Shown in pieces: positions 1-52,822 of a DNA stretch of 64,000 nt. Source of the DNA: an uncultured Candidatus Saccharibacteria bacterium. Its GTDB lineage: Bacteria > Patescibacteriota > Minisyncoccia > Phycocordibacterales > UBA9973. A program made the translations under genes and the position numbers. Where the stretch lies: the NCBI GenBank assembly GCA_964520225.1, contig CAZFNV010000001.1:72210-136209 (forward strand), given 5' to 3'. A model generated the notes under the pieces. The model made no database searches and was not told where the DNA came from. It saw only the letters and a list, made by a program, of their open reading frames with translations. Numbering within the stretch: position 1 is the stretch's first letter; each line of letters opens with the position of its first letter.

Positions 1-1159
1 CAACTGTTTGTGCAGTGTTAGGTGAGATTGCTCCATTGGCACCTGCTGATGGGGTGACGGTGTATTGGTTGGTAGCACAAGTAGAACCATTCCAGGTGGT
101 GTTAGGCGCACAAGATGCAGCTACTTGCGATTGCGCGAGCTCAATACTATTGTTGTATAAAAAAAAGTAACGCCCACCATAGGGCACATTAACCAACTGA
201 TTACCAGACTGCGGAGTGGCAAGAGTATTAGTTACAGTTATATCCGTCATGCCACTAGCAGTAATTTTAGTAGGAGTTGCCTTAGTATTGGTTATACCCC
301 AAGCTAAAGTCACATTACAGGTGCTTGCTCCGGATGCGATTTGACAAGAAGTGGTAGCCGGAGTAAGAGTTCCCGTCATTAAAAGAAAGTTTGCCGTACA
401 AGACTTATTAGCATTCATCGTCACCGAGCCGTCAGTACAGTCAGCATCTCCACTCCAGCTCGAGAAAACAGAGTTTGAGGCTGGAGTTTGAGTTAGAGTG
501 ACTGAAGTGCCTCCATTATATGTGCCCGCAGGTCCTGCCGTACCAGAACCTGAACCGGCAGTTCCTACAGAAAGGGTGTAAGTTTTAGTTTCTGAACAAG
601 AAGCGTCACTTCCTCCGTTTGAGCCCGCGCATGTCCATGTCCAAGAAGAAGTACCGCTGGCGTTATTTGTACTAGTACCTGCGTTACAGTTGTAGTGTGT
701 AGCTGAACATGAGCCGTTCACTGGCCTTGCTTCTGAACAAGGGGCGTCACTTCCACCACCCTGTCCGTAACAAGTCCAGTACCACCAGTTTGGAGTTTGC
801 GAAGTATTGCCCGAAGTACCCGCATCACAGTTGTAGTGTGTAGCTGAACATGAACCGTTAGTTATTGTAGGTGGGGTAGTATCTTCGTCTTCGGGTATAC
901 AAACACACATTTCTGGATAAATTATTGAGTACCCCTCTTCCTGCTCAGCTCCTCCCCAAACACATGAAGCTATCTCGGTTCCACAATCACAAGTATACGT
1001 TGCAGGATTGTTGGGATAAAAATTTTCCCCATCATCATAGCCACCATTGGAACACTGTATGCTGTCTGCAGAGACCAAACTTGGAGCAAGGAGAAAACCG
1101 AAGACCGCAAAAAGTCCCATTAAAAACAAAAGCAAACTCCCGTGATATTTGATGGTCAT
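1..1159 (-). CDS. Secreted repeat protein, partial (C-terminal part runs off the window start). It has an N-terminal signal/TM segment, two tandem ~50-aa NGSCSATHYNC[DN]AGTS repeats, and a module resembling the divergent InlB B-repeat.
   Basis: The minus-strand reading frame is open from the ATG at 1159 to position 1 (hand translation MTIKYHGSLLLFLMGLFAVFGFLLAPSLVSADS...). The start overlaps the upstream stop by 4 nt (ATGA). The track omits it because there is no in-window stop. Confidence 0.6.
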   Translation of the reverse strand, partial: MTIKYHGSLLLFLMGLFAVFGFLLAPSLVSADSIQCSNGGYDDGENFYPNNPATYTCDCGTEIASCVWGGAEQEEGYSIIYPEMCVCIPEDEDTTPPTITNGSCSATHYNCDAGTSGNTSQTPNWWYWTCYGQGGGSDAPCSEARPVNGSCSATHYNCNAGTSTNNASGTSSWTWTCAGSNGGSDASCSETKTYTLSVGTAGSGSGTAGPAGTYNGGTSVTLTQTPASNSVFSSWSGDADCTDGSVTMNANKSCTANFLLMTGTLTPATTSCQIASGASTCNVTLAWGITNTKATPTKITASGMTDITVTNTLATPQSGNQLVNVPYGGRYFFLYNNSIELAQSQVAASCAPNTTWNGSTCATNQYTVTPSAGANGAISPNTAQTV

Positions 1160-1686
1160 TTTGTGTATATTTCTATTAAAATGCTAGTTTGACCTTCTGA
1201 CAATTGCGTAGCGTTGAAACGATATAAATAATCTGAACTTTCTGCTTCTATGAATCCAAAGTTATTGGCGCGACTCGCTTTTTTAATGTCAAACTGAGCA
1301 TTCGAGAGTTGCACCAGTAGCTTCTGGTGAAATTCCGACAACGGTTTTTGAACTTTGAGATCTACCGTAAACGCGTTTCTGTCTTTAGACTGTTTTATCT
1401 CAACATCATAAGCCTCAGGATCTAAGAACTTATTTATTTCATCAGGCAAACTATTTGAGTCTATGGCTCCGAAAGTCTCTTTGGGTAAATCAGGCAAAAT
1501 AGAGTCTTTAAGGAGGACAGCCTTTACTTGTTCAACCGTAGGGCTTTCTTGCTCTTGCTCCGGATCGTTTGTATAAGTATCTTTCTTCGTAAATACAAAA
1601 AGTATTACTCCAAGCGTAATTAATAAAACTACAATAAGCCCAAAATGAGAATTTTTTGACTCAGTGGTCAAGTTATCACCTTCCAT
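1156..1686 (-). CDS. Hypothetical membrane-anchored protein (single N-terminal TM)
   Basis: 176-aa ORF with a hydrophobic segment HFGLIVVLLITLGVILFVF; it is translationally coupled to the downstream gene. Confidence 0.5.
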   Translation of the reverse strand: MEGDNLTTESKNSHFGLIVVLLITLGVILFVFTKKDTYTNDPEQEQESPTVEQVKAVLLKDSILPDLPKETFGAIDSNSLPDEINKFLDPEAYDVEIKQSKDRNAFTVDLKVQKPLSEFHQKLLVQLSNAQFDIKKASRANNFGFIEAESSDYLYRFNATQLSEGQTSILIEIYTK

Positions 1687-1833
1687 ATTAGAAAATTATA
1701 CCACTTATATAAAAATATACACAAATAAAAAAGGTGTGGAAAAGTTTTTTGGCAACAAAAAAGGAGCCGAACGCTACTTTTTTACAAGTGGAACGTCCAG
1801 CTCCAGATGGAACTAAACAAGAACAAGGAGTGC

Positions 1834-1863
1834 GGGCGGAGGGGTTCTGTACCCCCTCCGCCC
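1834..1863 (-). terminator. Perfect 11-bp GC hairpin (GGGCGGAGGGG/CCCCTCCGCCC) 12 nt after the metallopeptidase stop codon, followed by a U-rich tract on the minus strand
   Basis: The inverted repeat was read directly from the sequence. Confidence 0.5.
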
Positions 1864-1874
1864 CCTGGGCCCGA

Positions 1875-2696
1875 CTACTGATGGTCGAAGGTCAGGGTAT
1901 ACGATCCCGCCCTCGACTGGAAGGACGTCATCCCGGGCGGGAGCGTGCCTTCCGCGAGACGGAACATCATCTCACGGTTATCGGCTTCAGCCTTGGAGAG
2001 GAGCTGATCCTGGGTCTTTCCCCAGACCCCAGACATCAACCCTCCAGGGTCGTTGCTGTGGCACAAGCCGATCACAGCGTGACCAAGTTCGTGCCGGAAG
2101 GACGAAACGTAAACCCCGTTGGGACCGAAACGAACCCTCCCACTGGTGATTAGGTTGTTGTCCACCTGAACCCAGGCAGACCCCCAGCCAGTGTAGGAAG
2201 GATCGCGGATCACGTTCACGACCCCTTGACCCTCAAGCTGACCGTAAACGAGCTCAAGGGGAACGTTAAGCTGAGCCCGAAACTCTGGACTCAAAGCGCG
2301 CTCCATGACTTCACGTTCTCCCGCCGAGAAATCCGGCGAGATAGCGATGGTCATCGGCCCCATTGGCTTCCGAAGAGGACGGACGCCCCCGTTCTCGCCA
2401 GCGCTGAGCACTCCCTTGCCACAGAACGAAAGCAGCATGGCAGTCTCGACGGAATTGGCGCCACGGATGCCCCAGAGGGGGAGCTCGCTCGGCGGGACGG
2501 AAAACAGCTCCGGCCCCACCGACACGAACTGGAACGACGAGGGCAGAGCCGCAGGCGTCGGGGTAACGGTCGACTGGGCGCCGACGACCTTGCCGGTCGT
2601 GGTGGTAGTCGTCGCCGACGGCGCGACGGGAGAGTCCCCGCCGCACGCCACGCTGATGGCCGCGAGAGCCACCAGTACGAACATCTTCTTCAACAT
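1875..2696 (-). CDS. Secreted zinc metallopeptidase lipoprotein (HELGHAVIGLCH, a metzincin-like HExxHxxxGxxH motif with an LMSG Met-turn-like segment). High-GC coding sequence that looks foreign.
   Basis: The internal start MLKKMFVLVALAAISVAC at 2696 has a lipobox and a strong SD (AAAGGAGGG) 8 nt upstream. GC3 is strongly G/C, unlike the neighbouring genes. Confidence 0.6.
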   Translation of the reverse strand: MLKKMFVLVALAAISVACGGDSPVAPSATTTTTTGKVVGAQSTVTPTPAALPSSFQFVSVGPELFSVPPSELPLWGIRGANSVETAMLLSFCGKGVLSAGENGGVRPLRKPMGPMTIAISPDFSAGEREVMERALSPEFRAQLNVPLELVYGQLEGQGVVNVIRDPSYTGWGSAWVQVDNNLITSGRVRFGPNGVYVSSFRHELGHAVIGLCHSNDPGGLMSGVWGKTQDQLLSKAEADNREMMFRLAEGTLPPGMTSFQSRAGSYTLTFDHQ

Positions 2697-2778
2697 AATG
2701 GCCCTCCTTTCAGGCCATGCTCGCGGTTGAGCCACGAGCGAACACAGAAAAATTGTGAGGTACGATGATTTCGAGATG

Positions 2779-2787
2779 ATTATACCA
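2779..2787 (-). promoter_or_regulatory. Extended -10 promoter (TGgTATAAT) ~75 nt upstream of the metallopeptidase start
   Basis: Reverse complement of ATTATACCA at 2779-2787. Confidence 0.4.
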
Positions 2788-2974
2788 CAAAACACCCCTT
2801 TTTTGCAAATTTTGTGCATAACTTTGTGGATAAGTCTGCTGGTTTGCAATTATATGTATGCTGTGATAGTATTCTAGGCGTAAGAGTCCTGCAGCAACGG
2901 GGCTTTTATTTTTTAGAAAATAAGGAGTGCAAACGACCATATTTTCTAAAACCCCGTTAAATGATTTCAAATTT

Positions 2975-3238
2975 ATGGGAAAATTTTATTACATATATGT
3001 GCTTAAATCCCAAAAAGATGGCGCACTGTATGTGGGTTACACCGACAATTTGAAATCGCGATTTGAGCAACATTCGAAAGGACGTGTTACTTCGACAAAA
3101 AATCGCAGGCCGCTCGAACTAGTGTACTCTGAAGCTTGTTTAAGTAAACCCGATGCAACACATCGTGAGAGATATTTAAAAACAGCTTGGGGTAAAAAGT
3201 TTTTGAAGAATCGGCTCAAATCTTATTTAATGGGGTAA
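2975..3238 (+). CDS. Small stand-alone GIY-YIG nuclease domain protein (YhbQ-like)
   Basis: FYYIYVLKS..DGALYVGYTDNLKSRFEQH...ERYLK (GIY-YIG motifs). The start is taken at the internal ATG at 2975. Confidence 0.65.
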   Translation: MGKFYYIYVLKSQKDGALYVGYTDNLKSRFEQHSKGRVTSTKNRRPLELVYSEACLSKPDATHRERYLKTAWGKKFLKNRLKSYLMG

Positions 3239-3325
3239 TATTAAAAAATTTAATAGCGAGCAAGAGGTTAGTAAAATACCCCAATGAAATGCTCAAGCCT
3301 TGCTTGAGCCAAAAATTTCACGGGG

Positions 3326-3365
3326 TGACGATTTTAATAATCGCTTCGCTCATTTAAAATCGTCA
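3326..3365. promoter_or_regulatory. 12-bp perfect inverted repeat (TGACGATTTTAA/TTAAAATCGTCA) whose right arm ends in the A of the nusA ATG
   Basis: Seen directly in the sequence; 16-nt spacer. Confidence 0.4.
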
Positions 3366-4510
3366 TGTTAGATCTAAAAACATTCAAATCCGCGCTAGAA
3401 CAACTAGAAGAAGAGCGCAAAATTCCAAAAGAAAAAATTCTCGACGCCATTGAGCAGGCTATGGCTGCCGCGTATAAGAAAGATTACGGCAAGAAGGGTC
3501 AGATAATTCGCGCCAAGTTCGACCTCGAAACTGGTAAAACTGATTTTTATCAAATCAAGATAGTGGTAGATGAAAGCATCGCCATACTCGACGACAGCGA
3601 GGAGCCAGCAGATAGCGATGAGCGTGTGTACTTCAACAGCGAGCACCACATCCTGCTCGCAGATGCGAAGAAGATAAAGAGCGATGCCGAGCTTAATGAT
3701 GAGATAGTTTTCCCTCTCGAGGCGAAAGATGACTACGGTCGCATAGCTGCCCAAACAGCCAAGCAAGTTATAATCCAGAAAATCCGCGAAGCAGAACGCA
3801 CCTCTATTATGGACGAATACGGCGGTCGCGAAGGCGAGGTTATCTCTGGCGTAGTTCAGAAGATAGAGAGAGGCAATGTGTACGTAGACTTCAGCCGTGC
3901 TACTGGTATCTTGCCCGCAGAAGAGCAGATCCCAGGGGAGTATCTAGAGCAAGGTCAGCGCCTACGTGCATATCTCTACTCAGTAGAGGACGGTCCACGT
4001 GGTATCAACCTTCGCCTATCCCGCACCCATCCTAAATTTATTGAAAAACTCTTTGCAGCTGAAGCGCCCGAGATAGAAGACGGCACTGTAGAGATAAAAT
4101 CTGTAGCTCGCGAAGCTGGCGCACGATCCAAGATAGCCGTACATTCTAGCGATGAACATATCGACGCAGTCGGATCTTGTGTGGGACAAAAAGGAACTCG
4201 GGTAAATACTATCACCAGCGAGCTTCACGGCGAGAAAATCGACATAATCCCTTGGTCCGAAGATCCGAAAGTTTTCGTCGGCAACGCTCTTTCTCCTGCA
4301 AAAATAATTTCTATTGAAATAGATGAGGCAGAACACCGAGCTATCGTAGAAGTAGCCGAGGATCAACTGTCACTCGCCATCGGTAAAGGCGGGCAAAACG
4401 TGCGCCTAGCGGCCAAGCTCACTGGCTGGAAAATAGACATCAAGAGCAATAAATCTGGAGAGGAAACAGAAGAACAGGAAAGCGCAGAAGAAACAACTGA
4501 AGAGAAATAA
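3365..4510 (+). CDS. nusA: Transcription termination/antitermination factor NusA
   Basis: N-terminal domain, S1 and tandem KH regions (GKGGQNVRLAAKLTGWKIDIKS) are recognisable across the full length. Confidence 0.9.
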   Translation: MLDLKTFKSALEQLEEERKIPKEKILDAIEQAMAAAYKKDYGKKGQIIRAKFDLETGKTDFYQIKIVVDESIAILDDSEEPADSDERVYFNSEHHILLADAKKIKSDAELNDEIVFPLEAKDDYGRIAAQTAKQVIIQKIREAERTSIMDEYGGREGEVISGVVQKIERGNVYVDFSRATGILPAEEQIPGEYLEQGQRLRAYLYSVEDGPRGINLRLSRTHPKFIEKLFAAEAPEIEDGTVEIKSVAREAGARSKIAVHSSDEHIDAVGSCVGQKGTRVNTITSELHGEKIDIIPWSEDPKVFVGNALSPAKIISIEIDEAEHRAIVEVAEDQLSLAIGKGGQNVRLAAKLTGWKIDIKSNKSGEETEEQESAEETTEEK

Positions 4511-4572
4511 ACCTTCAATACTCGATTTAAATCCTGGCTTGAAAAAGCCAGGAAAAAGAATATACTTGTGAT

Positions 4573-5160
4573 ATGGCAAACATAAATCACAAACCATCCA
4601 AGTACATGCTGAATTTACTGCATGTTTTACCTCCATTCGTGGATGAAAAGAAAGGTGTAATAAATACAATCGTTGAGATAAACGCTGGTAGTATTAATAA
4701 GTACGAAACCATCACAGAATCTGGCCAGCTCAAGCTAGACCGAGTCGGATATTCTTCACTGGCATATCCGTTCGCATATGGTGCCATCCCGCAGACATGG
4801 GACTACGATGGCGATCCGCTAGATGTGGAGATAGTAAACGTCATCGAACCCCTCGTTCCGGGATGTCTGGTCGAGGCAAGAATAATCGGAGTCATGAAAT
4901 TCGAAGACAGTGGTGAAGTTGATGATAAAATAATTGCCGTACTCTCCGACGACAAGAGGAGTGACCATATTCAGTCTATTGAAGACTTAAGCGAACAGTT
5001 TAAAAAAGAAACAACCTACTTCTGGGAACATATCAAGTTTCTAAAGAAGCCAGGCACCGGTGTAACAAAAGGATTCTTTGATAAAAACGAAGCCCTAAGG
5101 GTTGTCAAAGAATGCGAGGAACGATACAAAGAACTCTATTCGCCCAAATTGAGTGAGTAG
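4573..5160 (+). CDS. ppa: Inorganic pyrophosphatase (family I)
   Basis: EINAGSINKYE...YPFAYGAIPQTWDYDGDPLDV motifs. The promoter is leaderless (TTGAAA-16-TATACT, then 6 nt to the ATG). Confidence 0.85.
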   Translation: MANINHKPSKYMLNLLHVLPPFVDEKKGVINTIVEINAGSINKYETITESGQLKLDRVGYSSLAYPFAYGAIPQTWDYDGDPLDVEIVNVIEPLVPGCLVEARIIGVMKFEDSGEVDDKIIAVLSDDKRSDHIQSIEDLSEQFKKETTYFWEHIKFLKKPGTGVTKGFFDKNEALRVVKECEERYKELYSPKLSE

Positions 5161-5202
5161 ATTTGAATTTTATTAGCTTATTAGTATTAATAAATAAAAA
5201 TT

Positions 5203-5901
5203 ATGAAAAAATATTTTGGTTTACTAATGGTTCTGGGTTTACTACTAGGCGGAAGCGTGGTAAAAGCCGAAGAAGATTTTGTGGCTTGCACCATGGACGC
5301 AAAACAGTGCCCTGACGGCTCTTTCGTAGGACGCCAAGGCCCTAGGTGTGAATTCGCTCCATGCCCTGGAGTTGCCGAAAAACGCGAAGCAGTGAGAGAA
5401 GGGTTTGCGAAAAAAAGAGAGGTAATGAAAACCGAAATGGAAAAAAGGCGTGAAGAGTTTATGAAAGAAGTGCAGGCCAAGAAAGAGGCTTTCCGCAACG
5501 CTGACAGCAAAGCAAAAACTGGCTTTTGCCAAGCCGCACGAGCAATGACCGAACAAAGATTCGAGTCTGCTACCACTAACCTGGACAAACTATACACTAG
5601 GATTACAAACGTAGTCGCAAAGTTTGAGGCTGATGGTAAAGATACCTCTACAGCAGAAGCATCTCTCGACAGCGCATCTGTGAAAATCAATGAGGCTAAA
5701 GACAAGACTGAAGAAATTAAAACCTTCATACCAGAATCCTGTGAAGAAGTAACTCCGGAGATTTTCGAACAGGTGAAAATTCTAGCCCGTGAAGCAAAAG
5801 ATCTATTGCAAGAAGCAAGGAGCTATTTGCGAGAAGCTGTGTCAGCACTCAAAGTATTGCGTGAAGATAGCGATAGCGCGACCGAAACAGATCAAAATTA
5901 A
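5203..5901 (+). CDS. Secreted Lys/Glu-rich coiled-coil protein, hypothetical
   Basis: Signal peptide MKKYFGLLMVLGLLLGGSVVKA; no recognisable motif. Confidence 0.5.
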   Translation: MKKYFGLLMVLGLLLGGSVVKAEEDFVACTMDAKQCPDGSFVGRQGPRCEFAPCPGVAEKREAVREGFAKKREVMKTEMEKRREEFMKEVQAKKEAFRNADSKAKTGFCQAARAMTEQRFESATTNLDKLYTRITNVVAKFEADGKDTSTAEASLDSASVKINEAKDKTEEIKTFIPESCEEVTPEIFEQVKILAREAKDLLQEARSYLREAVSALKVLREDSDSATETDQN

Positions 5902-5961
5902 TTAAGCCTTTGTTTTTAATTTAGATAAAGGTTACGACATTGAGTAATTAACTAAAAAACT

Positions 5962-6183
5962 ATGGAATCAGATCAAAAATCAAATGGTGCTTTCGTGAGT
6001 TCAATAATTATCATCATCATACTCATCGTCGGAGGTATATATCTTTTCAAGAAAACGCCAGCAAACGCTCCTACTCCTCAAAATGGCACTGAGGCTCTAC
6101 TCGAGTCAGACCTAAACTCTACCGCCGACCTAGAAGCTGAACTAGAAGGCATAGATTTAGAGAACTTGGATTCAGAAATATAA
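5962..6183 (+). CDS. Small membrane protein, hypothetical
   Basis: 73 aa with a single TM (IIIIIILIVGGIYLF); a terminator follows. Confidence 0.4.
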   Translation: MESDQKSNGAFVSSIIIIIILIVGGIYLFKKTPANAPTPQNGTEALLESDLNSTADLEAELEGIDLENLDSEI

Positions 6184-6207
6184 ACAAGATTCAATCTCAA
6201 AAATAAA

Positions 6208-6239
6208 ATCCCCGCCCATAGTAGCGGGGATTTTATTTT
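6208..6239 (+). terminator. Rho-independent terminator (ATCCCCGC / GCGGGGAT stem followed by TTTTATTTT)
   Basis: Seen in sequence. Confidence 0.7.
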
Positions 6240-6272
6240 GACAAAATCAACTTACGAATATAAGATAATGAA
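6238..6272 (+). promoter_or_regulatory. Leaderless promoter for tig: TTGACA-17-TAAGAT, then 6 nt to the ATG
   Basis: Seen in sequence. Confidence 0.45.
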
Positions 6273-7328
6273 ATGTCAAAAACTAAAGTCACAAAGTTAC
6301 CAAAAAGCGAAGTGGAGATAGAGGGCGAGCTTGCCGAAAACATATTTGAAGCGTATTTCCCTTTGGCGCTCAAGAGAATATTTGAGGACTTAGAGATAGA
6401 TGGCTTCCGCAAAGGCAAAGCACCGGAACATGTAGTACTTTCTAGGGTTCCTGAAAAAGTTATCTTGGAAGAAATGGCAGAAATGGCTCTACGGGAACAC
6501 TATCCAAAAATTCTCGAAGATGAAAAGATCGACGCTATAAGTCAGCCGGAAATTGCGATAACCAAGCTCGCCCGCAAGAACCCGCTCGGTTTTAAAATCA
6601 AGACTGCAGTTTTACCTGAAGTGAAATTGCCTGACTACAAAGCTCTAGCTAAAAAAATTCTTTCTTCCTTATCGGATAAGGACAAGGACACTTCCGTTAG
6701 TGATGAGGAAGTCGAAAACACAATACTCGACATCCGAAAATCTCGCGCACCGAAGAAGCATGTAACCGAAGGCGCAGAAGAAAAAGAGCTAGAAGGCAAA
6801 GAAGAACTGCCAGAGTGGAATGATGAGTTCGTAAAAGGGCTTGGACCTTTCGACAGTGTGGAAGATTTCAAAACCAAGCTCAAAGAAAATCTAAAAATAG
6901 AAAAAGCCAATCTCCAGAAAGAAAAAACTCGCATCAAAATAATAGAGGGTGTCATTGAGGACTCTGAGCTTGAAGTACCCGACATTCTGGTCGAGCTTGA
7001 ACTCAATAAAATTCTGGCTCGAATGGAGTCGGACATTACCCAAATGGGACTCAAGTTTGAAGACTATCTAAAACATTTGAACAAAACTGCGGAAGACTTG
7101 CGTAAAGAATTTCGCAAAGATGGCGAGAAGAAAGCCAAACTCGCCCTCATACTAAATGCAATAGCTAAAGCTGAGAAAATTGTTGCCGACCAGGCTAAAG
7201 TTGAACAAGAAGTGGAACAAATACTCGCTCACTACAAAGACGCTGACCCTGACCGCGCTCGTGCCCATGTGGAAGAAGTGCTCACTAACGAGCTCATATT
7301 TGCGTTACTCGAGAAAGACTCTGCTTAA
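6273..7328 (+). CDS. tig: Trigger factor, short form (the PPIase region appears reduced)
   Basis: Trigger-factor N-terminal signature GFRKGKAP; it lies next to clpP as in the tig-clpP arrangement. Confidence 0.8.
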   Translation: MSKTKVTKLPKSEVEIEGELAENIFEAYFPLALKRIFEDLEIDGFRKGKAPEHVVLSRVPEKVILEEMAEMALREHYPKILEDEKIDAISQPEIAITKLARKNPLGFKIKTAVLPEVKLPDYKALAKKILSSLSDKDKDTSVSDEEVENTILDIRKSRAPKKHVTEGAEEKELEGKEELPEWNDEFVKGLGPFDSVEDFKTKLKENLKIEKANLQKEKTRIKIIEGVIEDSELEVPDILVELELNKILARMESDITQMGLKFEDYLKHLNKTAEDLRKEFRKDGEKKAKLALILNAIAKAEKIVADQAKVEQEVEQILAHYKDADPDRARAHVEEVLTNELIFALLEKDSA

Positions 7329-7369
7329 GAACGACTTGAAAAATCGTTCAATATAAATATAATACTCGT

Positions 7370-7975
7370 ATGCTTATACCTACAGTGATAGAGAAAAGTC
7401 AGTTTGGTGAACGGGCGTATGATATATATTCTCGCCTTTTGCGCGAGCGGATAATATTTCTCGGTGGGCCGATAGACGACCACACTGCGAACATCGTCAT
7501 TGCCCAGTTGCTTTTCCTGGAATCTGAAGATCCTAAGAAAGATATATTTTTGTATGTGAACTCCCCTGGCGGTTCAGTGACCTCGACCATGGCTATTGTG
7601 GACACCATGAACCACGTACGCCCAGATGTAGCGACTTTCTGTGTTGGGCTCGCAGCTTCCGGCGGAGCGATAATCCTCTCTTCTGGTAAAAAGGGCAAGC
7701 GCTACATCCTACCAAACGCAGAAGTTATGATTCACCAACCACTCGGCGGTGTAGAGGGCCAAGCTACCGACATTGCAATATCGGCAAAGCATATTTTGAA
7801 AACTCGAGATAATTTAAATAAATTGCTAGCAAAAAATACAGGCAAATCCTTAACCCAAATCGAAAAAGACGTAGAACGCGACTTCTTTATGGACGCTGAA
7901 GAGGCTAAAAAGTACGGCCTGGTGGACGAAATAGTCACCAAATCTAAGAATAAACTCGAGAAATCCGCTGAGTAG
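7370..7975 (+). CDS. clpP: ATP-dependent Clp protease proteolytic subunit
   Basis: [10 protein letters not shown]...[10 protein letters not shown]...MIHQPLGG catalytic Ser and His contexts. Leaderless TTGAAA-16-TATAAT promoter. Confidence 0.9.
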
Positions 7976-8164
7976 ACAAAATCAAAATCATTTGTTATAC
8001 TAAAATTGTTGAAACAATTATTTGATTTAATCGTGCCAGTCTTAAGAGAACATACCTTATATTTATGAATTCTATCAGGGAAAATATGAAGAGGAGTATT
8101 GCAAATTTCGCTAGGGTCTTCGTCTTTCTGAAAACAAAGTCACAAATATAGTTGTGTGTGCTCT

Positions 8165-8187
8165 CATAAGCTGGAAGTAAGCTTATG
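8165..8187. promoter_or_regulatory. 8-bp inverted repeat CATAAGCT/AGCTTATG whose right arm contains the rny ATG
   Basis: Seen in sequence. Confidence 0.35.
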
Positions 8188-9717
8188 AACATAACCTTAA
8201 CAATAGTTTTACTAGGCACCGGGGTGTTACTCTTTGGTGTTTTAGTCGGTTATTACCTACGCTTCATTATCGCGCTCGGCAAACGCCGATCTATTGAGAT
8301 AGACATCAAGCAAATGATGGTCAGCGCCAAAGAAGAAGCGCAGAGAATATTAGACGAGGCCAAGAAAAAGTCTGAGGAACAGTTGGCCAGCTTGCGAGAA
8401 GAAGAACGCAAGAAGGTACAGGAGTTTAAAGAAACAGAAAAAAGGCTGGTGAAGAAGGACGAATTTCTGGATGCACGTCAACTGGAAATAGACAAAGAGG
8501 TAGAGAATATAAAGCTCAAAGTAGAAGAGATAAAGAAAATCCAAGAAAAAGTCACACGAATTGAGGAAGATAAAATAAAAGAACTAGAGAGGGTGGCTGG
8601 ATTATCAGAGAGTAACGCAAAAGAAGAACTGCTAAAAGATATTCAGAGGAAATACGGAGAGGATCTGGTAACGCAGATGCAGAAGCTAGAAAGTAGCAAT
8701 GGCGAGAAGTTAGAAGCCCGAGCTAAAGAAATATTGGCGACATCTGTCCAGCGTCTAGCGGCAAGTACCGCTTCTGAGCTGATGACGACCTCGGTCGCAA
8801 TAGCCAACAACGAAATAAAGGGTAAAATAATTGGTAAAGAAGGTCGCAACATTCGAGCCTTCGAACGAGCTGCTGGTGTAGAACTCATAGTGGACGACAC
8901 CCCGGGCTCTATCGTCATATCATCCTTCGATCCAATACGCCGACAAGTTGCCCGTCTTGCTCTTGAGAACTTAATTCTAGATGGACGCATACAACCAGCC
9001 AAGATTGAGGAGCTAGTAGAAAAAGCAAAAGAAGATATAAATAAAATAATAAAAGAAAAAGGCGAACAGGCAGTCTATGAATGCGGAATATTCAACTTTG
9101 ACCCGCGCATAGTTGCCATCATTGGTCGGCTTTATTTTCGCTCGAGTTATGGACAAAACGTGCTCCAGCATTCCATTGAAGCAGCCCATATTGCTGGCAT
9201 GATAGCGGAAGAGATTGGTGCCGATGTAGCGATAGCTAAAGCTGGGGCCCTAGTACACGATATAGGTAAGGCTCTCGACCACGAAGTGCAGGGTACGCAC
9301 GTGGAAATAGGTATGCGCATACTGCAAAAGTTCGGTGCAGATGAACGCATTGTGACAGCCATGAAGAGCCACCACGAGGACTACCCATATGAAACCATCG
9401 AGGCTAGAATAGTCCAAACAGCAGATGCTATATCAGGCGGTCGCCCAGGCGCAAGACGCGACTCAGTAGAGAATTATCTAAAGAGATTGCAAGAACTCGA
9501 GGCCCTAGTGAACGCCTTCCCTGCTGTTGAGAAATCTTATGCCCTCCAAGCTGGGCGCGAGATCCGCATATTTGTCACTCCAGAGAAAATTTCTGACGCT
9601 GAAGCCAAGATGATGGCTCGTGACATAGCAGTAAAAATAGAGCAAGAGCTCAAATACCCTGGTGAAATCAAGGTTACCATGATTCGTGAGACCAGAATCG
9701 TGGAATATGCTAGGTAA
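8185..9717 (+). CDS. rny: Ribonuclease Y
   Basis: N-terminal TM, coiled coil, a KH domain (GKIIGKEGRNIRAFE) and an HD domain (HSIEAAHIAGMIAEE...VHDIGKA). Confidence 0.9.
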   Translation: MNITLTIVLLGTGVLLFGVLVGYYLRFIIALGKRRSIEIDIKQMMVSAKEEAQRILDEAKKKSEEQLASLREEERKKVQEFKETEKRLVKKDEFLDARQLEIDKEVENIKLKVEEIKKIQEKVTRIEEDKIKELERVAGLSESNAKEELLKDIQRKYGEDLVTQMQKLESSNGEKLEARAKEILATSVQRLAASTASELMTTSVAIANNEIKGKIIGKEGRNIRAFERAAGVELIVDDTPGSIVISSFDPIRRQVARLALENLILDGRIQPAKIEELVEKAKEDINKIIKEKGEQAVYECGIFNFDPRIVAIIGRLYFRSSYGQNVLQHSIEAAHIAGMIAEEIGADVAIAKAGALVHDIGKALDHEVQGTHVEIGMRILQKFGADERIVTAMKSHHEDYPYETIEARIVQTADAISGGRPGARRDSVENYLKRLQELEALVNAFPAVEKSYALQAGREIRIFVTPEKISDAEAKMMARDIAVKIEQELKYPGEIKVTMIRETRIVEYAR

Positions 9718-9807
9718 TTGACCAAAATTCTCTACGAGGTATAATGAAAAGGTATTAAATAAGAGGGTACTTGGTCGAACTAATTACAAAACTAACCAAC
9801 ACACTCT

Positions 9808-10080
9808 ATGAACAAACAAGCATTAGCGGAACTGGTGCACGGCAAGCTAGGTGGCACTAAGGTCCAAGCTGAAGAGGTAGTGGACAGCATCTTCGATGCT
9901 ATTATCTCTACCTTGAAAAAAGGAGACGAAGTGTCCATAGCTGGTTTCGGTATATTCTCAGTTAAACAGAGAGCAGCTCGTACGGCTCGCAATCCAAAAA
10001 CTGGGGAACAAGTTAAAGTAGAAGCTAAGAGAGTGCCTAAATTCCGACCTGCAAAAGGTTTAAAGGATTCTGTTTCATAA
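9808..10080 (+). CDS. hup: DNA-binding protein HU/IHF family
   Basis: GFGIFSVKQRAARTARNPKTGE arm motif. Confidence 0.9.
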   Translation: MNKQALAELVHGKLGGTKVQAEEVVDSIFDAIISTLKKGDEVSIAGFGIFSVKQRAARTARNPKTGEQVKVEAKRVPKFRPAKGLKDSVS

Positions 10081-10110
10081 AAATTCTTTTCGCGCGAGAA
10101 GAATTAATCA

Positions 10111-10140
10111 AAAACCCGCCACTGGCGGGTTTTTGATTTT
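10111..10140 (+). terminator. Rho-independent terminator (ACCCGCC / GGCGGGT followed by TTTTGATTTT)
   Basis: Seen in sequence. Confidence 0.7.
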
Positions 10141-10145
10141 AGTAT

Positions 10146-10370
10146 TTATTTTTTATACAAAACAAAGAATGGGATTTTGTCTATGCCAATATAATTAAAC
10201 ATTTTGTAGTTCGCGCGACGAGCAGTCGGTGAGAGTTGATGCATCTTTAAATTGATTTTGGGCACGAAAGGATAGAATCTTACTTCTTGATGATGCGCAC
10301 CCCTATCATTCCATTTAAAGTTAGTGATTAATGGTGGAACCATATAGCCCGATTCCTTACTTTTAGACAT
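10146..10370 (-). CDS. Small hypothetical ORF (74 aa)
   Basis: ORF only; no SD and no recognisable motif. Confidence 0.2.
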   Translation of the reverse strand: MSKSKESGYMVPPLITNFKWNDRGAHHQEVRFYPFVPKINLKMHQLSPTARRANYKMFNYIGIDKIPFFVLYKK

Positions 10371-10462
10371 GCGGACATTAGATCATTTTTAGATCATGAG
10401 CGCAAGAAATGGTCATTGTTGTGACAAGTTGCAAGAATATATTAATGTTATATAATAGAAAA

Positions 10463-10551
10463 AGGCATTTGTGAGGAGTTCGCTTCTCTCGCGGTTAAAA
10501 TCAAACTGCAGCCAAATGCCATCAAAACATCTGCCGAAAGGCGGATTTTTT
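10463..10551 (+). ncRNA. Candidate small RNA (~90 nt). It has a TATAAT box at 10451-10456, an internal GGCATTTG/CAAATGCC helix, and a 3-prime hairpin CTGCC-GAAA-GGCGG followed by a U-run. The hairpin could equally be a bidirectional terminator of the minus-strand lexA operon.
   Basis: Promoter-like box, paired segments and terminator were read directly; there is no downstream plus-strand gene for ~3.6 kb. Confidence 0.25.
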
Positions 10552-10555
10552 GATT

Positions 10556-11044
10556 TCAGTCGTATTCTGGACTACCGCTATGCATGATTCTTTCCCCCTG
10601 TTTACTGAGACCCCAGAAAGGAATAATGCTTAGAAAAAATTTTTCTCCTCCATGAACCTGTTTCACAATTACTTTCACTCTAACTTTCGAATTATGAGAT
10701 TCCATTATCGCGATGAATTCATAGTAAGTGGTTACCTTCATAACACTCTGCCATTCCCCGTCTTTTTTCTTTATACGTTCGAACTTTTCTTTAGTTAAAA
10801 TACCTTGAAGTGTTCTTGATTGCTTAATAACTTCTGGCGCTAATTTTATATGCCTTAATCTATTATACTGATCCTTTATAGGCCTAGCACTATTCCAAGT
10901 TTTAAAAATTAAATGATCCCAGCCCTTAGTGTTAAAATGAATTTTTTCGTTCTTAAAATAAGAAGAGGAGACCTTCCCGATGTTTTGATAAAACTCCTCA
11001 GCATCTCTTTTAACTTTATTGAATTGTTCAACACTGAACTCCAT
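10556..11044 (-). CDS. Hypothetical protein, the distal gene of the lexA operon (candidate SOS-controlled cargo)
   Basis: 162-aa ORF lying 12 nt downstream of lexA on the same strand; no recognisable family. Confidence 0.5.
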   Translation of the reverse strand: MEFSVEQFNKVKRDAEEFYQNIGKVSSSYFKNEKIHFNTKGWDHLIFKTWNSARPIKDQYNRLRHIKLAPEVIKQSRTLQGILTKEKFERIKKKDGEWQSVMKVTTYYEFIAIMESHNSKVRVKVIVKQVHGGEKFFLSIIPFWGLSKQGERIMHSGSPEYD

Positions 11045-11055
11045 CTTTGATGATT

Positions 11056-11622
11056 TTAGTATTTCCTTATCACAGCTTTAAGCGTGGCAACAACCTTTAG
11101 GCTATATTCTGGGTAAATAGGCTTGTAGTTTTTGTTCGCGGGTTCGAGCCAACGCTTACCTGCCCGCTCGCGCAAATACTTCATCGTATATTCTCCATCC
11201 ACCTCGGCGATAACTATTTCACCATCACGAGCTGTGTTCGCCCGCTCTACCAGCACCATGTCCCCTTTCTCAATATGTGCATCTATCATAGAGTCGCCAT
11301 CAACTTCGAGCATATAAGTCAGTGATTTATTTTTTACTAGCAAGCTATCGAGCGATACCGTGTCGGTCATCTCTTCATCCACCGTCGCTGGTAGCCCAGC
11401 AGTCACCAGACCAAGCATTGGAACTTCACCGAAAGAGTTGGCAGGAATCAACCTACCTAGGTGATCCTTGGCCACGAGCCCTGCCTCAATTAATTTGTTC
11501 ACAACTTTGAAAACCGCATTCTTGGATTTGAAGCCGAAGAGCTTGGCCATCTCCGCATATGTGGGCATACGGTTGTGTTTACCGTAAAAGGATTCTAGCT
11601 CGGATTGATATTGATTACGCAT
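11056..11622 (-). CDS. lexA: LexA repressor (wHTH plus S24 peptidase)
   Basis: N-terminal HTH, VPMLGLVTAG cleavage region, GDSMIDAHIEKGD...K catalytic Ser/Lys. Confidence 0.85.
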   Translation of the reverse strand: MRNQYQSELESFYGKHNRMPTYAEMAKLFGFKSKNAVFKVVNKLIEAGLVAKDHLGRLIPANSFGEVPMLGLVTAGLPATVDEEMTDTVSLDSLLVKNKSLTYMLEVDGDSMIDAHIEKGDMVLVERANTARDGEIVIAEVDGEYTMKYLRERAGKRWLEPANKNYKPIYPEYSLKVVATLKAVIRKY

Positions 11623-11830
11623 GAGTGTTTAGAATGTCTCTGCGGAAAAATAAATCTACAAAACGATTAGTGAAACTCTTGTGAGTGTGGAAGCGAACTT
11701 TCTGCAGAAGCAACCTATGATCTCTCGCCTCTTTCCTGTAATCCAAGCCTCGTAGAATTTTCAAATCTATTTTTTTATTTATCTTCTGGATTTCTCTATC
11801 TAGCATTTTTAAATATTGTGATTGTGACAT
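11615..11830 (-). CDS. Small basic hypothetical ORF (71 aa) overlapping the lexA start by 8 nt; the first gene downstream of the LexA box
   Basis: ORF and operon position only. Confidence 0.35.
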   Translation of the reverse strand: MSQSQYLKMLDREIQKINKKIDLKILRGLDYRKEARDHRLLLQKVRFHTHKSFTNRFVDLFFRRDILNTHA

Positions 11831-11887
11831 TTTTTTAAGCTAGCTAGCTGGTTACCTAATAGCTGAGCAGCTGTGTGTAGTATAAGT

Positions 11888-11899
11888 GAACGAGCGTTC
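11888..11899. promoter_or_regulatory. LexA operator of the Cheo-box type, GAAC-N4-GTTC (GAACGAGCGTTC), 58 nt upstream of the lexA operon
   Basis: Exact match to the Gram-positive-type LexA box core; position relative to lexA. Confidence 0.55.
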
Positions 11900-11929
11900 A
11901 CCTGTCAACGTATCACCTGTGGAAAACTA

Positions 11930-39526: not shown

Positions 39527-39570
39527 ATAAAAAACCAAAACACACATATTTTAAATAAGCAATAATATTC

Positions 39571-52704: not shown

Positions 52705-52721
52705 TAAAAATTCACTACAGG

Positions 52722-52811: not shown

Positions 52812-52822
52812 TAAAATAAAAA

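What the first reader, a model, noticed from the sequence alone, without database searches (positions are those of the whole stretch)
1790..2800. Second foreign-GC gene: a metzincin-like lipoprotein with host-type extended -10 promoter, strong SD and GC-hairpin terminator
The CDS 1875-2696 is ~65% GC, whereas its flanks are AT-rich. It encodes a lipoprotein signal (LAAISVAC) and a zinc-binding HELGHAVIGLCH motif with an LMSG Met-turn-like segment. That suggests a secreted metalloprotease acquired from a high-GC donor. The extended -10 (TGgTATAAT), the AAAGGAGGG SD and the perfect 11-bp hairpin after the stop suggest it is expressed.
Basis: partly seen in the sequence, partly recalled or inferred. 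Interest (0 to 1): 0.6.

Follow-up and report, generated by a model that had tools for sequence, protein, structure and literature searches.

The report
GC-rich, hairpin-dense metalloprotease lipoprotein gene
This is a real gene for a membrane-anchored zinc protease in an ultra-small (CPR/Paceibacteria) bacterium; its high GC content is a conserved trait of the gene family, tied to an excess of RNA/DNA hairpins, and shows no sign of a recent foreign origin.

Summary
Window 1875-2696 (-) encodes a 273-aa lipoprotein with a zinc-binding motif. GC is 62% (GC3 75%) against 35% flanks and a window median GC3 of 42%. Profile searches and a confident AlphaFold model place it in the metzincin fold, nearest MMP-like enzymes. 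It falls below every Pfam threshold and carries one extra residue in the motif (HExxHxxxGxxH).

The "recent import from a high-GC donor" reading is not supported. Only 45 relatives exist among 1.84 billion representative proteins. In all 13 distinct AT-rich Paceibacteria loci recovered, the gene sits in the same three-gene cluster: protease, small membrane protein, large Cys-rich secreted protein. Only the protease is GC-rich (GC3 +0.2 to +0.35). Alleles at the same nusA-adjacent slot share promoter and 5'UTR but only 35-48% protein identity.

All 12 alleles tested fold 8-13% more stably than their own synonymous-codon shuffles (z -2.7 to -5.0). Neighbours and GC-rich genes from GC-rich genomes do not. 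Other GC-rich secreted-protein genes here behave the same way, including 37975-39420 and 39784-40959.

My best reading is a native, hypervariable surface protease whose GC-rich, hairpin-dense coding sequence is actively maintained. The mechanism is unresolved.

The parts
2779..2808 (-). Sigma-70-type promoter: -35 TTGCAA, 18-nt spacer, extended -10 TGgTATAAT
   Evidence: The consensus scan gives 10 of 12 matches plus the TG extension. The extended -10 TGTGGTATAAT is identical, and an upstream hexamer (ACTTGC in the relatives) is retained, in the orthologous loci L001, L003, L085, L084 and L102. This holds even though their CDSs are only 35-48% identical to the window's.
2697..2772 (-). 5' UTR with two hairpins (2739-2719 and 2718-2698) and the SD AAGGAGG at 2709-2703. 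The second hairpin partly sequesters the SD.
   Evidence: RNA fold: -28.4 kcal/mol, z -2.6. A near-identical UTR occurs in L102. The L001/L085 UTR has a comparable stem with changes on both arms, GCTTCG..CGAAGC against GCTCG..CGAGC. The transcription start is inferred from the -10 position, not measured.
1875..2696 (-). CDS of a 273-aa lipoprotein metzincin ('MET'); GC 0.62, GC3 0.75
   Evidence: Homologues. Fold. Excess RNA folding: z -4.3 against synonymous shuffles, -5.0 against dinucleotide shuffles, -3.0 against 40-codon block shuffles.
2643..2696 (-). Signal peptide (residues 1-17) and lipobox Cys18 (ISVAC)
   Evidence: The sequence is MLKKMFVLVALAAISVAC|GG. Cys18 is conserved in 30 of 33 aligned relatives; the other three have no residue at that column. 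NCBIfam gives only weak lipoprotein-leader hits. Lipidation itself is inferred.
2034..2093 (-). Zinc site H202-E203-L-G-H206-A-V-I-G210-L-C212-H213, and Met221 of the Met-turn (2036-2034)
   Evidence: H202, E203, H206, H213 and E237 are invariant, and G210 nearly so, in 33 relatives. One extra residue between H206 and G210 is seen only in the window's subclade, 8 sequences. The segment aligns to MMP-2 HEFGHAMGLEHSQDPGALM. Model pLDDT here is 93-97.
1834..1863 (-). GC-rich 11-bp perfect hairpin just after the stop codon; no U-tract
   Evidence: A hairpin with a similar sequence lies in the same place in L001, L003 and L084.
1757..1804 (-). Second hairpin (about 11 bp plus an inner stem) followed by TTTTTT: the likely intrinsic terminator
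   Evidence: RNA fold of 1750-1880 gives -57 kcal/mol, z -4.1. GGAGCTGAGC...GCTCGGCTCC plus a T-run is conserved in L001, L003, L085 and L084.
1811..2750 (.). GC-rich block (0.62 GC) with sharp edges. It covers the distal 5'UTR, the CDS and the first hairpin, and lies inside the inferred transcript.
   Evidence: The same architecture occurs in L001, L002, L003, L084, L085, L091, L093-L101 and L102.
1156..1686 (-). Cluster partner 1: a 176-aa protein with one N-terminal membrane helix; AT-rich (GC3 0.33); has its own extended -10 promoter
   Evidence: It is the positional counterpart of the 163-179-aa gene that follows MET in every locus long enough to show it. Sequence similarity is weak, 19-25%. 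It shows no excess folding, z +1.3.
1..1159 (-). Cluster partner 2 (5' part; runs off the window): a secreted Cys-rich repeat protein. Its ATG 1159-1157 overlaps the partner-1 stop codon (ATGA).
   Evidence: Translation. Counterparts of 550-1090 aa follow in L001, L085, L084 and L093-L100; the L001 copy has a TSP_1 repeat at E 3.6e-9. GC3 is 0.22-0.42 and there is no excess folding.

Best explanation
What it is. Window 2696-1875 (-) is an expressed, native gene of a Paceibacteria (CPR, 'Nomurabacteria'-like) bacterium. It encodes a zinc endopeptidase of an uncurated, very small metzincin family.

How the protein works (inferred from homology and the model).
- A Sec/lipoprotein signal is cleaved before Cys18, and the lipidated Cys tethers the enzyme to the outside of the cell membrane.
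- A disordered Thr/Pro/Ala linker (residues 19-50) follows.
- A conserved ~55-residue N-terminal segment comes next, carrying the motifs LPLWxLRGxN and NGGxRPLRKPxGP. It is stapled to the zinc loop by a Cys92-Cys212 disulfide.
- The metzincin catalytic domain spans residues ~110-273. His202, His206 and His213 hold the zinc, Glu203 activates the water, and Met221 forms the Met-turn.
- The enzyme probably acts on host or environmental surface proteins, or on the co-encoded Cys-rich secreted protein.

How the locus behaves (shown by comparison). It is the first gene of a conserved three-gene surface cluster. It is hypervariable: alleles at one slot share promoter, UTR and terminator but only 35-48% of residues.

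Why it is GC-rich. The composition is a long-standing property of the gene family, about +1 to +1.5 logit units of GC3 over the host background. It is coupled to an 8-13% excess of local stem-loops created by synonymous codon choice. I infer that a force acting on the nucleic acid maintains it. The most likely force is selection for a heavily base-paired, hence stable or slowly translated, mRNA.
For: Protein.
- Pfam shows only a sub-threshold M10 hit. PDB phmmer aligns residues 201-237 to MMP-2.
- The family profile hits MMP-2 at E 1.9e-5 and myroilysin at 6.6e-5 over 115 residues.
- The AF2 model has pLDDT 83.3, above 90 in the catalytic core, with a five-strand, three-helix topology.
- H202, E203, H206, H213 and E237 are invariant.
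- Cys92 and Cys212 co-occur: 11 both, 21 neither, 1 exception, Fisher p 6e-8.

Native and clustered.
- NusA places the organism among Paceibacteria MAGs.
- MET sits beside GIY-YIG/nusA in W, L001, L003 and L102, and 4 kb from nusA in L084. NusA identity to the window is 86%, 87% and 83% in L001, L102 and L084; L003 holds only the first 59 NusA residues.
- The order MET, ~165-aa TM protein, Cys-rich protein holds in L001, L085, L084 and L093-L100.
- In the close pair L095/L097, MET fourfold sites are as similar (0.63) as its neighbours' (0.62-0.70). MET is therefore co-inherited there.

Hypervariable.
- L001 and L085 flanks are 75-100% identical at the DNA level. The CDS drops to 40-67% from about codon 14 to the first hairpin.
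- Between those two loci the TM protein is 75% identical, the Cys-rich protein 56%, and MET 46%.
- W and L102 have NusA 87% but MET 35%.

GC is maintained.
- MET GC3 exceeds every neighbour in all 13 distinct AT-rich loci.
- W-L001 fourfold sites keep no memory (retention -0.11; C versus G match 0.41 against 0.50 expected) while GC4 stays at 0.76/0.67. Housekeeping genes show 0.46/0.29.
- The shift affects all codon families and all fifths of the gene. It differs from the expression-linked bias, which is confined to NNY codons.

Structure.
- z is -2.7 to -5.0 in all 12 alleles, with 0 of 30-40 shuffles as stable.
- The result is confirmed by dinucleotide shuffles and block shuffles.
- Fourteen ordinary window genes give z -1.6 to +2.2. 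Cluster partners give -0.3 to +1.3.
- GC-rich genes of GC-rich genomes give -2.0 to +0.9, including the family member in a 70%-GC contig at +0.9.
- The excess comes from inverted 6-mers 3-30 nt apart.
Against: - No biochemical or expression data exist. Lipidation, the disulfide, zinc binding and proteolysis are all inferred.
- The extra residue in the zinc motif could alter or abolish third-His coordination.
- Met221 is not conserved in that exact column across the wider family: 19 of 33 have Met there.
- One distant relative lies in a 70%-GC contig, so an ancient transfer from a GC-rich lineage remains possible.
- Neutral amelioration from a donor with GC3 near 1.0 is only marginally excluded by the W-L001 clock.
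- W-L001 MET alleles look older than the genomes. The L001/L085 pair shows cassette replacement, so lateral import of alleles does occur.
- The folding excess is nearly as large on the antisense strand: sense is greater in 7 of 10 genes, with mean excess 39 against 30 kcal/mol. A DNA-level cause is therefore not excluded.
- The neighbouring TM gene is equally hypervariable but AT-rich and unstructured. This argues against a simple link between variability and GC.
- Context is known for only 14 of the ~45 family members.
Confidence: 0.62

Rival explanations
1. One reading: a gene recently acquired by horizontal transfer from a high-GC donor. Host-type promoter and terminator were recruited around it, and the GC content is a not-yet-ameliorated relic.
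For: Composition and codon usage resemble a ~60% GC organism in every codon family. The edges are sharp. The gene is absent next to nusA in several relatives with 81-83% NusA identity, and none of 185,579 species-representative genomes holds a detectable copy. A distant relative lies in a 70%-GC contig.
Against: The same slot, promoter and UTR occur in relatives whose MET is only 35-48% identical. The gene is GC-rich in all 13 distinct AT-rich loci across a family down to ~23% identity, always inside the same cluster with AT-rich partners. Fourfold sites are saturated between alleles. No close homologue is known in any GC-rich genome among 1.84 billion representatives. No integrase, tRNA or flanking repeats are present. 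The folding excess is not seen in the GC-rich-host relative.
Confidence: 0.07
2. Ancient transfer or transfers from GC-rich bacteria, followed by circulation of divergent alleles among Paceibacteria through homologous recombination at the conserved flanks. GC-richness persists because alleles are repeatedly re-imported from GC-richer lineages, such as relatives with genome GC3 ~0.6. The hairpin excess is incidental or was inherited.
For: Cassette-like replacement occurs between L001 and L085. W-L001 alleles have less synonymous similarity than their genomes. HG3 shows the opposite: its synonymous sites are more similar than its flanks between W and L090 (retention 0.42 against 0.08), which suggests recent exchange. 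Close relatives with GC3 0.58-0.64 exist, namely L006, L020, L029 and L032.
Against: No MET copy was found in the GC-richer relatives sampled. In the L095/L097 pair MET is co-inherited with its neighbours and still sits at GC3 0.57-0.59. This model does not explain why synonymous codons are arranged to pair in all 12 alleles. It also does not explain why cluster partners exchanged alongside MET stay AT-rich.
Confidence: 0.18
3. A DNA-level mutational process makes these cassettes GC-rich, palindrome-rich and fast-evolving at once, without selection on the mRNA. Candidates are hairpin-templated (quasi-palindrome) template switching or GC-biased repair of heteroduplexes between divergent alleles.
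For: The excess self-complementarity is short-range (inverted 6-mers 3-30 nt apart) and is present on both strands. The genes concerned are hypervariable. The GC shift is uniform over all codon families, like a mutational or repair bias.
Against: The adjacent TM gene and parts of the Cys-rich gene are just as variable but AT-rich and without excess structure. The AT-rich spacer between the two GC-rich paralogues (39500-39700, GC 0.275) is untouched. Sense-strand excess is larger in 7 of 10 genes. No mechanism is known that would stop at CDS or transcript edges.
Confidence: 0.15
4. The protein is not an active protease. It would be a zinc-less or binding-only metzincin-fold module serving as a variable surface antigen or adhesin.
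For: The window's subclade has a one-residue insertion in the HExxHxxGxxH motif. Hypervariability is more typical of antigens than of enzymes. No curated peptidase model reaches its threshold.
Against: His, Glu, His, His and the helix-C Glu are invariant through 33 sequences that share as little as 18-25% identity. The catalytic region is the best-conserved and most confidently modelled part. Such conservation is not expected without catalysis.
Confidence: 0.1
5. Assembly chimera: a GC-rich fragment from another organism was spliced into an AT-rich contig.
For: There are abrupt composition changes at about 1811 and about 2750.
Against: A second assembly (Logan, SRR15237813) is identical over 11,876 bases spanning both junctions. 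The same architecture appears in more than 15 contigs from unrelated samples and assemblers. Promoter, SD, start codon, stop codon and terminators are all in register with the block.
Confidence: 0.01

Closest known systems
Matrixin-type metzincins (MEROPS M10A / Pfam PF00413), including bacterial karilysin
   Different: It is below the Pfam gathering score, 16.9 against 24 bits. The window's subclade has one extra residue before the Gly. I see no PRCGxPD cysteine-switch motif in the sequence. It has a lipoprotein anchor, and a conserved N-terminal segment tied by a covarying Cys pair. The structural Zn and Ca sites of MMPs were not assessed.
Other small bacterial metzincins: myroilysin, snapalysin (M7), serralysins (M10B), fragilysin, astacins
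   Different: No family-specific feature was found. The third ligand is not the Asp of snapalysin. I see no astacin-type Tyr after the Met-turn in the alignment, and no RTX repeats. All Pfam hits are sub-threshold.
Variable surface lipoprotein loci and balanced surface-antigen polymorphisms (Mollicutes Vlp/Vsa, Borrelia OspC-type loci); comparison from my own knowledge
   Same: A conserved promoter, 5'UTR and signal-peptide start is followed by a highly divergent mature region. Cassette-like allele replacement occurs between close relatives.
   Different: Only one copy per locus was seen, with no silent cassettes or repeats in the 64-kb window. The variable protein keeps an invariant catalytic site. 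The variable part is compositionally distinct from the genome.
Horizontally acquired genomic islands recognised by atypical GC
   Same: There is a sharp compositional discontinuity, atypical codon usage and patchy presence among relatives.
   Different: The block is a single transcription unit with no mobility genes, tRNA or flanking repeats. The anomaly is conserved across the whole family and confined to one gene of a conserved cluster. It is accompanied by excess folding not seen in GC-rich genomes.
Genome-scale ordered RNA structure (GORS) of some RNA viruses, and mobile GC clusters of yeast mitochondrial DNA; recalled, not tested
   Same: The folding-energy excess over sequence-order controls is of similar size, 8-17%. 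Both involve GC-rich hairpins inside an AT-rich genome.
   Different: Here the units are whole bacterial protein-coding genes. No repeated element is shared between them, and the function is unknown.

Membership tests
Metzincin clan (zinc endopeptidases, MA(M)) | Extended zinc motif HExxHxxGxxH/D with exact spacing | tested here: not met
   The window protein reads HELGHAVIGLCH, that is HExxHxxxGxxH, one residue too long. The same insertion occurs in the 8 closest relatives. The other 25 aligned relatives show canonical spacing of the three His, and 24 of them also have the Gly; P0038 has Ser. The family therefore meets the feature while the window's subclade is a spacing variant.
Metzincin clan (zinc endopeptidases, MA(M)) | Conserved Met-turn beneath the zinc site | tested here: met
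   Met221 lies 8 residues after His213, the MMP spacing, and aligns to the MMP-2 'ALM'. Met is present in all 11 closest sequences. It occupies that column in only 19 of 33 family members, and several others have Met one position earlier.
Metzincin clan (zinc endopeptidases, MA(M)) | Catalytic-domain fold: five-stranded sheet, active-site helix, C-terminal helix | tested here: met
Pfam PF00413 Peptidase_M10 (matrixin) | Score at or above the curated gathering threshold (24 bits) | tested here: not met
   The window protein scores 16.9 bits, E 0.0059, over residues 201-235 only. The best of 33 relatives reaches 22.1 bits. It is not filed as M10.
Matrix metalloproteinases proper | Cysteine-switch propeptide motif PRCGxPD | tested here: not met
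   No such motif is present in the 273-aa sequence. The only N-terminal Cys after the lipobox, Cys92 in SFCGKG, covaries with Cys212, which points to a disulfide.
Bacterial lipoproteins | Signal peptide ending in a lipobox with invariant Cys | tested here: met
   The sequence has MLKK, a hydrophobic core, then ISVAC|GG, which fits the permissive lipobox pattern as I recall it. Cys18 is conserved in 30 of 33 aligned relatives; the other three have no residue at that column.
Bacterial lipoproteins | Presence of Lgt and LspA in the same genome, and actual lipidation | not tested
   Only 64 kb of the genome is available, and I did not search it for lgt or lspA.
Intrinsic (Rho-independent) terminator | GC-rich stem-loop immediately followed by a U-tract | tested here: met
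It is met by the second hairpin (1804-1763) with UUUUUU at 1762-1757, which is conserved in relatives.
Diversity-generating retroelement target gene | A template repeat elsewhere that matches a variable region except at adenines, plus a nearby reverse transcriptase | tested here: not met
   No direct or inverted repeat of 35 nt or more involves 1875-2696, 37975-39420 or 39784-40959 within the 64-kb window. Divergence between alleles includes indels and affects the whole CDS. A template outside the window is not excluded.
Recently acquired genomic island | Atypical composition, mobility signatures, and close homologues in a plausible donor | tested here: not met
   Atypical composition is met. 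No integrase, tRNA or flanking repeats are present. No close homologue outside AT-rich Paceibacteria contigs was found among 5.8 billion or 1.84 billion proteins. Orthologous slots exist in relatives.

The most novel reading that the evidence does not exclude
AT-rich Paceibacteria keep a specific class of secreted-protein and lipoprotein genes permanently GC-rich and packed with local stem-loops, through a force acting on the nucleic acid rather than the protein. The class includes this metzincin, the 37975-39420 / 39784-40959 pair, and unrelated lipoproteins in relatives. One candidate force is selection for very stable or slowly translated mRNAs in ribosome-poor ultra-small cells. Another is hairpin-protected single-stranded DNA that favours exchange of surface-gene cassettes. 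If so, what looks like 'foreign GC' would be a native, gene-class-specific sequence architecture, a bacterial analogue of genome-scale ordered RNA structure. It would be coupled to hypervariable alleles at fixed loci.
Probability: 0.4. Interest if true: 0.82.

Novelty: new variant of a known kind. Interest (0 to 1): 0.68.

Why it matters
Atypical GC is the standard first clue for horizontal transfer. Here it would mislead. The same gene is GC-rich in every AT-rich genome that carries it, inside a conserved cluster, and its synonymous codons are arranged to base-pair. If confirmed, three things follow.

1. There would be a gene-class-specific force on base composition and nucleic-acid structure in bacteria. 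It is directly testable through mRNA half-life, structure probing and polarised polymorphisms.
2. A small set of hypervariable surface genes (a lipoprotein protease, its membrane and Cys-rich partners, and the HG2/HG3 pair) would become candidates for the host-contact machinery of uncultured episymbiotic CPR bacteria.
3. An uncurated metzincin family would be added, with a one-residue expansion of the zinc-binding consensus. That expansion is of interest to peptidase classification.

It is also a caution for automated HGT and contamination screens of CPR MAGs, which would flag or remove exactly these genes.

Tried and rejected
- Overlapping or dual coding as a cause of GC-richness. Stop-free lengths in the five alternative frames were compared with synonymous shuffles in 12 alleles. 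No frame was consistently long; the +2 frame had p of 0.03-0.11 in 6 of 12 and was unremarkable in the rest. Rejected.
- Translational selection for optimal codons. Putatively highly expressed window genes shift only NNY codons toward C, whereas the GC-rich genes shift every family, including Lys, Glu and the fourfold boxes. Rejected as the main cause.
- DGR mutagenesis. No template-like repeats were found. Not supported.
- Phage origin. No relative was found in IMG/VR.
- Defence-system membership. No PADLOC hits of note.
- Known RNA families. Only tRNAs reached threshold in the window. A 27-bit BjrC80 match against a gathering score of 80 in the 3' hairpin region is chance.
- Close relatives in GTDB species genomes and JGI metagenomes. 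Pattern scans found none. Two alignments were too divergent to scan with.
- Exact look-up of the window protein and P0001. Not on record.
- Homology of the 497-aa HExxH lipoprotein that fills the same slot in the GC-richer relative L006. Only the signal peptide aligns.
- Correlation between host GC3 and MET GC3 across loci. Inconclusive: r is 0.41 without L089, and the automatic L089 background picked a spurious ORF, so one search should be used for that locus.
- Sense versus antisense folding, to separate RNA-level from DNA-level causes. Inconclusive.
- Literature. Three full-text searches and one paper on hypervariation in a Gracilibacterium found no description of this phenomenon. The search was limited, so this is not proof that none exists.
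- A strict neutral-amelioration test on W-L001. It excludes realistic donors with GC3 of 0.85 or less by about 2-3 standard errors. It does not exclude a donor with GC3 near 1.0.
Full report
**1. What is there**

The minus-strand ORF runs from ATG 2696 to TAG 1875 and encodes 273 aa. Its GC is 0.620 (GC1/2/3 = 0.61/0.50/0.75). Only 5.5% of third positions are A, against 31% in ordinary genes of the window. The flanks are 0.35-0.36 GC, and the GC-rich block spans about 1811-2750. Among 49 ORFs of the window the median GC3 is 0.42 (MAD 0.04). Only three genes stand out: this one, 37975-39420 and 39784-40959.

- The promoter is TTGCAA-18-TGgTATAAT at 2808-2779.
- The SD AAGGAGG lies 6 nt before the ATG.
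- An 11-bp perfect hairpin occupies 1834-1863.

That hairpin lacks a U-tract. A second hairpin (1804-1763) followed by six T's is the canonical terminator. In the predicted 5'UTR fold the SD sits in a small hairpin.

A Logan assembly of SRR15237813 is 100% identical to window 32-11907, across both junctions.

**2. The protein**

Pfam gives only a sub-threshold Peptidase_M10 hit (16.9 bits against a threshold of 24). NCBIfam gives only weak lipoprotein-leader hits. Against PDB sequences, residues 201-237 align to MMP-2 as HEFGHA-MGLEHSQDPGALM, with a one-residue gap.

The word-indexed search of 5.8 billion proteins found three sequences. The exhaustive profile search of 1.84 billion representatives found 45. 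An alignment of 33 of them shows:
- H202, E203, H206, H213 and E237 are invariant.
- G210 and the lipobox Cys are nearly invariant.
- The 25 more distant members have canonical spacing of the three His (24 also keep the Gly). The window protein and its 8 closest relatives have one extra residue, HExxHxxxGxxH.
- Met221 lies 8 residues after the third His, as in MMPs. Met occupies that column in 19 of 33 sequences.
- Cys92 and Cys212 are either both present (11) or both absent (21), with one exception. I read this as a disulfide tying the conserved N-terminal segment to the zinc loop.

Conclusion: this is a lipoprotein zinc endopeptidase of an uncurated metzincin family, MMP-like in its C-terminal half, with a spacing variant of the zinc motif. 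Catalysis, zinc binding, lipidation and the disulfide are inferred, not shown.

**3. The organism and the locus**

The neighbours are GIY-YIG, NusA, inorganic pyrophosphatase, trigger factor and ClpP. NusA is 81-83% identical to 'Candidatus Nomurabacteria', Paceibacterota and Patescibacteria MAGs.

MET homologues lie in the same place in several relatives:

| Locus | Position | NusA identity to window | MET identity to window |
|---|---|---|---|
| L001 | divergent from nusA | 86-88% | 44-48% |
| L003 | same slot | first 59 residues only (95%) | 43-46% |
| L102 | divergent from GIY-YIG/nusA | 87% | 35% |
| L084 | 4 kb from nusA | 83% | 39% |

The promoter, an upstream TCCACAAGT box, the distal 5'UTR hairpin, the second terminator and the next gene's promoter are conserved among these loci. 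The CDS is not.

Between L001 and L085 the flanks are 75-100% identical at the DNA level. Identity falls to 40-67% from about codon 14 of MET to its first hairpin. At the protein level the next two genes are 75% and 56% identical, but MET only 46%. MET therefore behaves as a hypervariable cassette in a fixed slot. Relatives with 81-83% NusA identity lack it there.

**4. A conserved three-gene cluster**

Downstream of MET there is always a 160-180-aa protein with one membrane helix, then a large Cys-rich secreted protein. In the window these are 1686-1156 and 1159-<1, joined by an ATGA overlap. In L001 the Cys-rich protein carries a TSP_1 repeat.

Nine further loci from JGI metagenomes hold distant family members, about 23-30% identical to the window protein. 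They lie in different genomic neighbourhoods but show the same order.

**5. The GC anomaly is a family trait**

In all 13 distinct AT-rich loci, MET GC3 exceeds all of its neighbours:
- MET values are 0.75, 0.69, 0.56, 0.64, 0.64, 0.72, 0.57, 0.38, 0.72, 0.59, 0.57, 0.61 and 0.58.
- Neighbours lie mostly at 0.16-0.45, with single genes reaching 0.51-0.53.
- This corresponds to a logit offset of about 0.9-1.6.
- The two cluster partners have background GC3.

One distant relative lies in a 70%-GC contig and matches its surroundings.

Evidence on timing:
- Between W and L001, fourfold sites of housekeeping genes retain little similarity (retention 0.13). Those of MET retain none (-0.11; C versus G match 0.41 against 0.50 expected).
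- Even so, MET GC4 is 0.76/0.67 against 0.46/0.29 in housekeeping genes.
- With the housekeeping clock, neutral amelioration from a donor of GC3 0.85 predicts about 0.59/0.49. Only a donor near 1.0 comes close.
- In the close pair L095/L097, MET has the same synonymous divergence as its neighbours (0.63 against 0.62-0.70 identical) and still sits at GC4 0.58 against 0.31-0.47. There it is co-inherited.

The shift affects every codon family and every fifth of the gene. It differs from the expression-linked bias of the window, which is limited to NNY codons.

**6. Excess self-complementarity**

Strand folding gave z = -5.0 (W) and -5.5 (L001) against dinucleotide shuffles. I then used a null that keeps the amino-acid sequence and codon usage, permuting synonymous codons.

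| Gene set | z against synonymous shuffles |
|---|---|
| 12 MET alleles | -2.7 to -5.0; no shuffle as stable; 8-13% excess energy |
| 14 ordinary window genes | -1.6 to +2.2 |
| Cluster partners (TM, Cys-rich) | -0.3 to +1.3 |
| GC-rich genes from GC-rich genomes | -2.0 to +0.9 (the 70%-GC MET relative: +0.9) |
| HG3 (W / L090) | -7.7 / -3.1 |
| HG2 (W) | -5.5 |
| L090 210-aa gene | -3.3 |
| L005 / L007 lipoproteins | -4.0 / -5.9 |
| L006 497-aa HExxH lipoprotein, same slot | -6.3 |

The rows from HG3 down are the other GC-rich secreted-protein genes of these bacteria.

Further properties of the signal:
- It survives shuffling within 40-codon blocks.
- It comes from inverted 6-mers 3-30 nt apart. 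For the eight MET alleles pooled, 109 were observed against 64 expected. There is no excess at longer range.
- It is spread along the gene.
- It is present on both strands, somewhat stronger on the sense strand in 7 of 10 genes.

**7. Interpretation**

The protein assignment is well supported. The locus comparison shows a native, hypervariable surface-protein cluster.

For the composition, the data favour a maintained state over a relic. The gene is GC-rich wherever it occurs in AT-rich hosts, its partners are not, synonymous sites are saturated, and codon choice is arranged to pair. I think selection on a heavily base-paired mRNA (stability against RNase Y-type decay, or throttled translation of a secreted protease) is the most likely cause. 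This step is inference.

Rivals that remain are:
- allele import from GC-richer lineages, since cassette replacement does occur;
- a DNA-level hairpin-templated or repair bias, given the both-strand signal. Against this, the equally variable but AT-rich, unstructured TM gene next door is hard to explain.

Recent HGT and mis-assembly are effectively excluded.

**8. Negative results**

- No consistent overlapping ORF was found.
- No DGR-like repeats were found.
- No phage relatives were found.
- No defence-system hits and no Rfam family in the region.
- No detectable homology links MET to the L006 slot-mate beyond the signal peptide.
- No literature description was found in three limited searches.

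**9. Verdict**

The gene is a new variant of a known enzyme kind. Its nucleotide-level behaviour is unusual and shared with other secreted-protein genes of the same bacteria. That behaviour is the most interesting and least explained part.

Noticed in passing
window 37975-39420 (+) and 39784-40959 (+): Two tandem paralogous genes (33% identity over a ~120-aa beta-rich domain) for signal-peptide, coiled-coil and TM proteins. GC is 0.60 and 0.67, GC3 0.70 and 0.86. They are separated by a 0.275-GC spacer. Each has a near-consensus promoter (TTGACA-17-TAATCA / TAATAT, sharing ATATGCTAAT) and GC-rich terminator hairpins. Only one other homologue turned up among 5.8 billion proteins. It lies in the syntenic locus of MAG GCA_964366465.1 (L090) and is also GC-rich, together with an extra 210-aa secreted gene. 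All show strong excess folding, z -3.1 to -7.7. HG3 synonymous sites are more conserved than those of its flanks.
   Followed up: partly
window ~2840-2915 (+), between the MET promoter and GIY-YIG/nusA: A conserved intergenic element ends in a terminator-like hairpin plus T-run (GAGTCCTGNNGNAACGGGGCTTTTATTTTT). It is shared with L001 and L102. It could be a small RNA or a leader/attenuator upstream of the GIY-YIG-nusA genes. It has no Rfam match.
   Followed up: partly
L006 7966-9459 (-): In a GC-richer close relative (genome GC3 ~0.64, NusA 83%), the slot upstream of GIY-YIG/nusA holds a different 497-aa lipoprotein with an HELSHAIPAVGH motif, followed by a 1292-aa secreted protein. It has no detectable homology to MET beyond the signal peptide, but its folding excess is very strong, z -6.3.
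   Followed up: partly
L005 7484-8743 (-); L007 7542-8855 (+) and 5018-5779 (-): Near nusA in other relatives, unrelated lipoprotein and secreted-protein genes are also GC3 outliers, +0.2 to +0.27 over background. The two tested have excess folding, z -4.0 and -5.9. Nearly all GC3 outliers found in about 35 Paceibacteria loci carry signal peptides.
   Followed up: partly
window 52435-53532: A second small GIY-YIG gene (52435-52704) is followed by a 104-nt direct repeat (52705-52808 and 53429-53532, 88% identical). The repeat brackets a 179-aa ORF (52823-53362). This may be the footprint of a small mobile insertion.
   Followed up: no
window 674-718 and 815-859; L001 11300-12800 against L085: The Cys-rich partner gene contains 45-nt direct repeats that encode the GSCSATHYNC(D/N)AGTS motif. 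Between L001 and L085 it shows a mosaic of conserved (85-98%) and highly divergent (36-55%) segments, as expected for a recombining surface protein.
   Followed up: no
window 2698-2718 (-); L001 ~9515-9532: The Shine-Dalgarno sequence of MET lies inside a small hairpin in both the window (AUGGCCU-GAAAGGA-GGGCCAU) and L001 (GAGCC-AGGA-GGCUC). This may limit translation initiation.
   Followed up: no
L102 8487-8588: A ~100-nt G-rich tract with N's lies right after the MET stop codon in MAG GCA_964366465.1. It is probably a poly-G sequencing or scaffolding artefact at the GC-rich hairpin. It created a spurious 70-aa ORF call.
   Followed up: no
L013 3790-5904 (+): A 704-aa secreted protein has a GC-rich C-terminal half (0.61 in a 0.46 genome). 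From recall only, that half resembles C-terminal domains common in Acidobacteria. It may be a genuine case of domain acquisition by HGT in the same clade.
   Followed up: no
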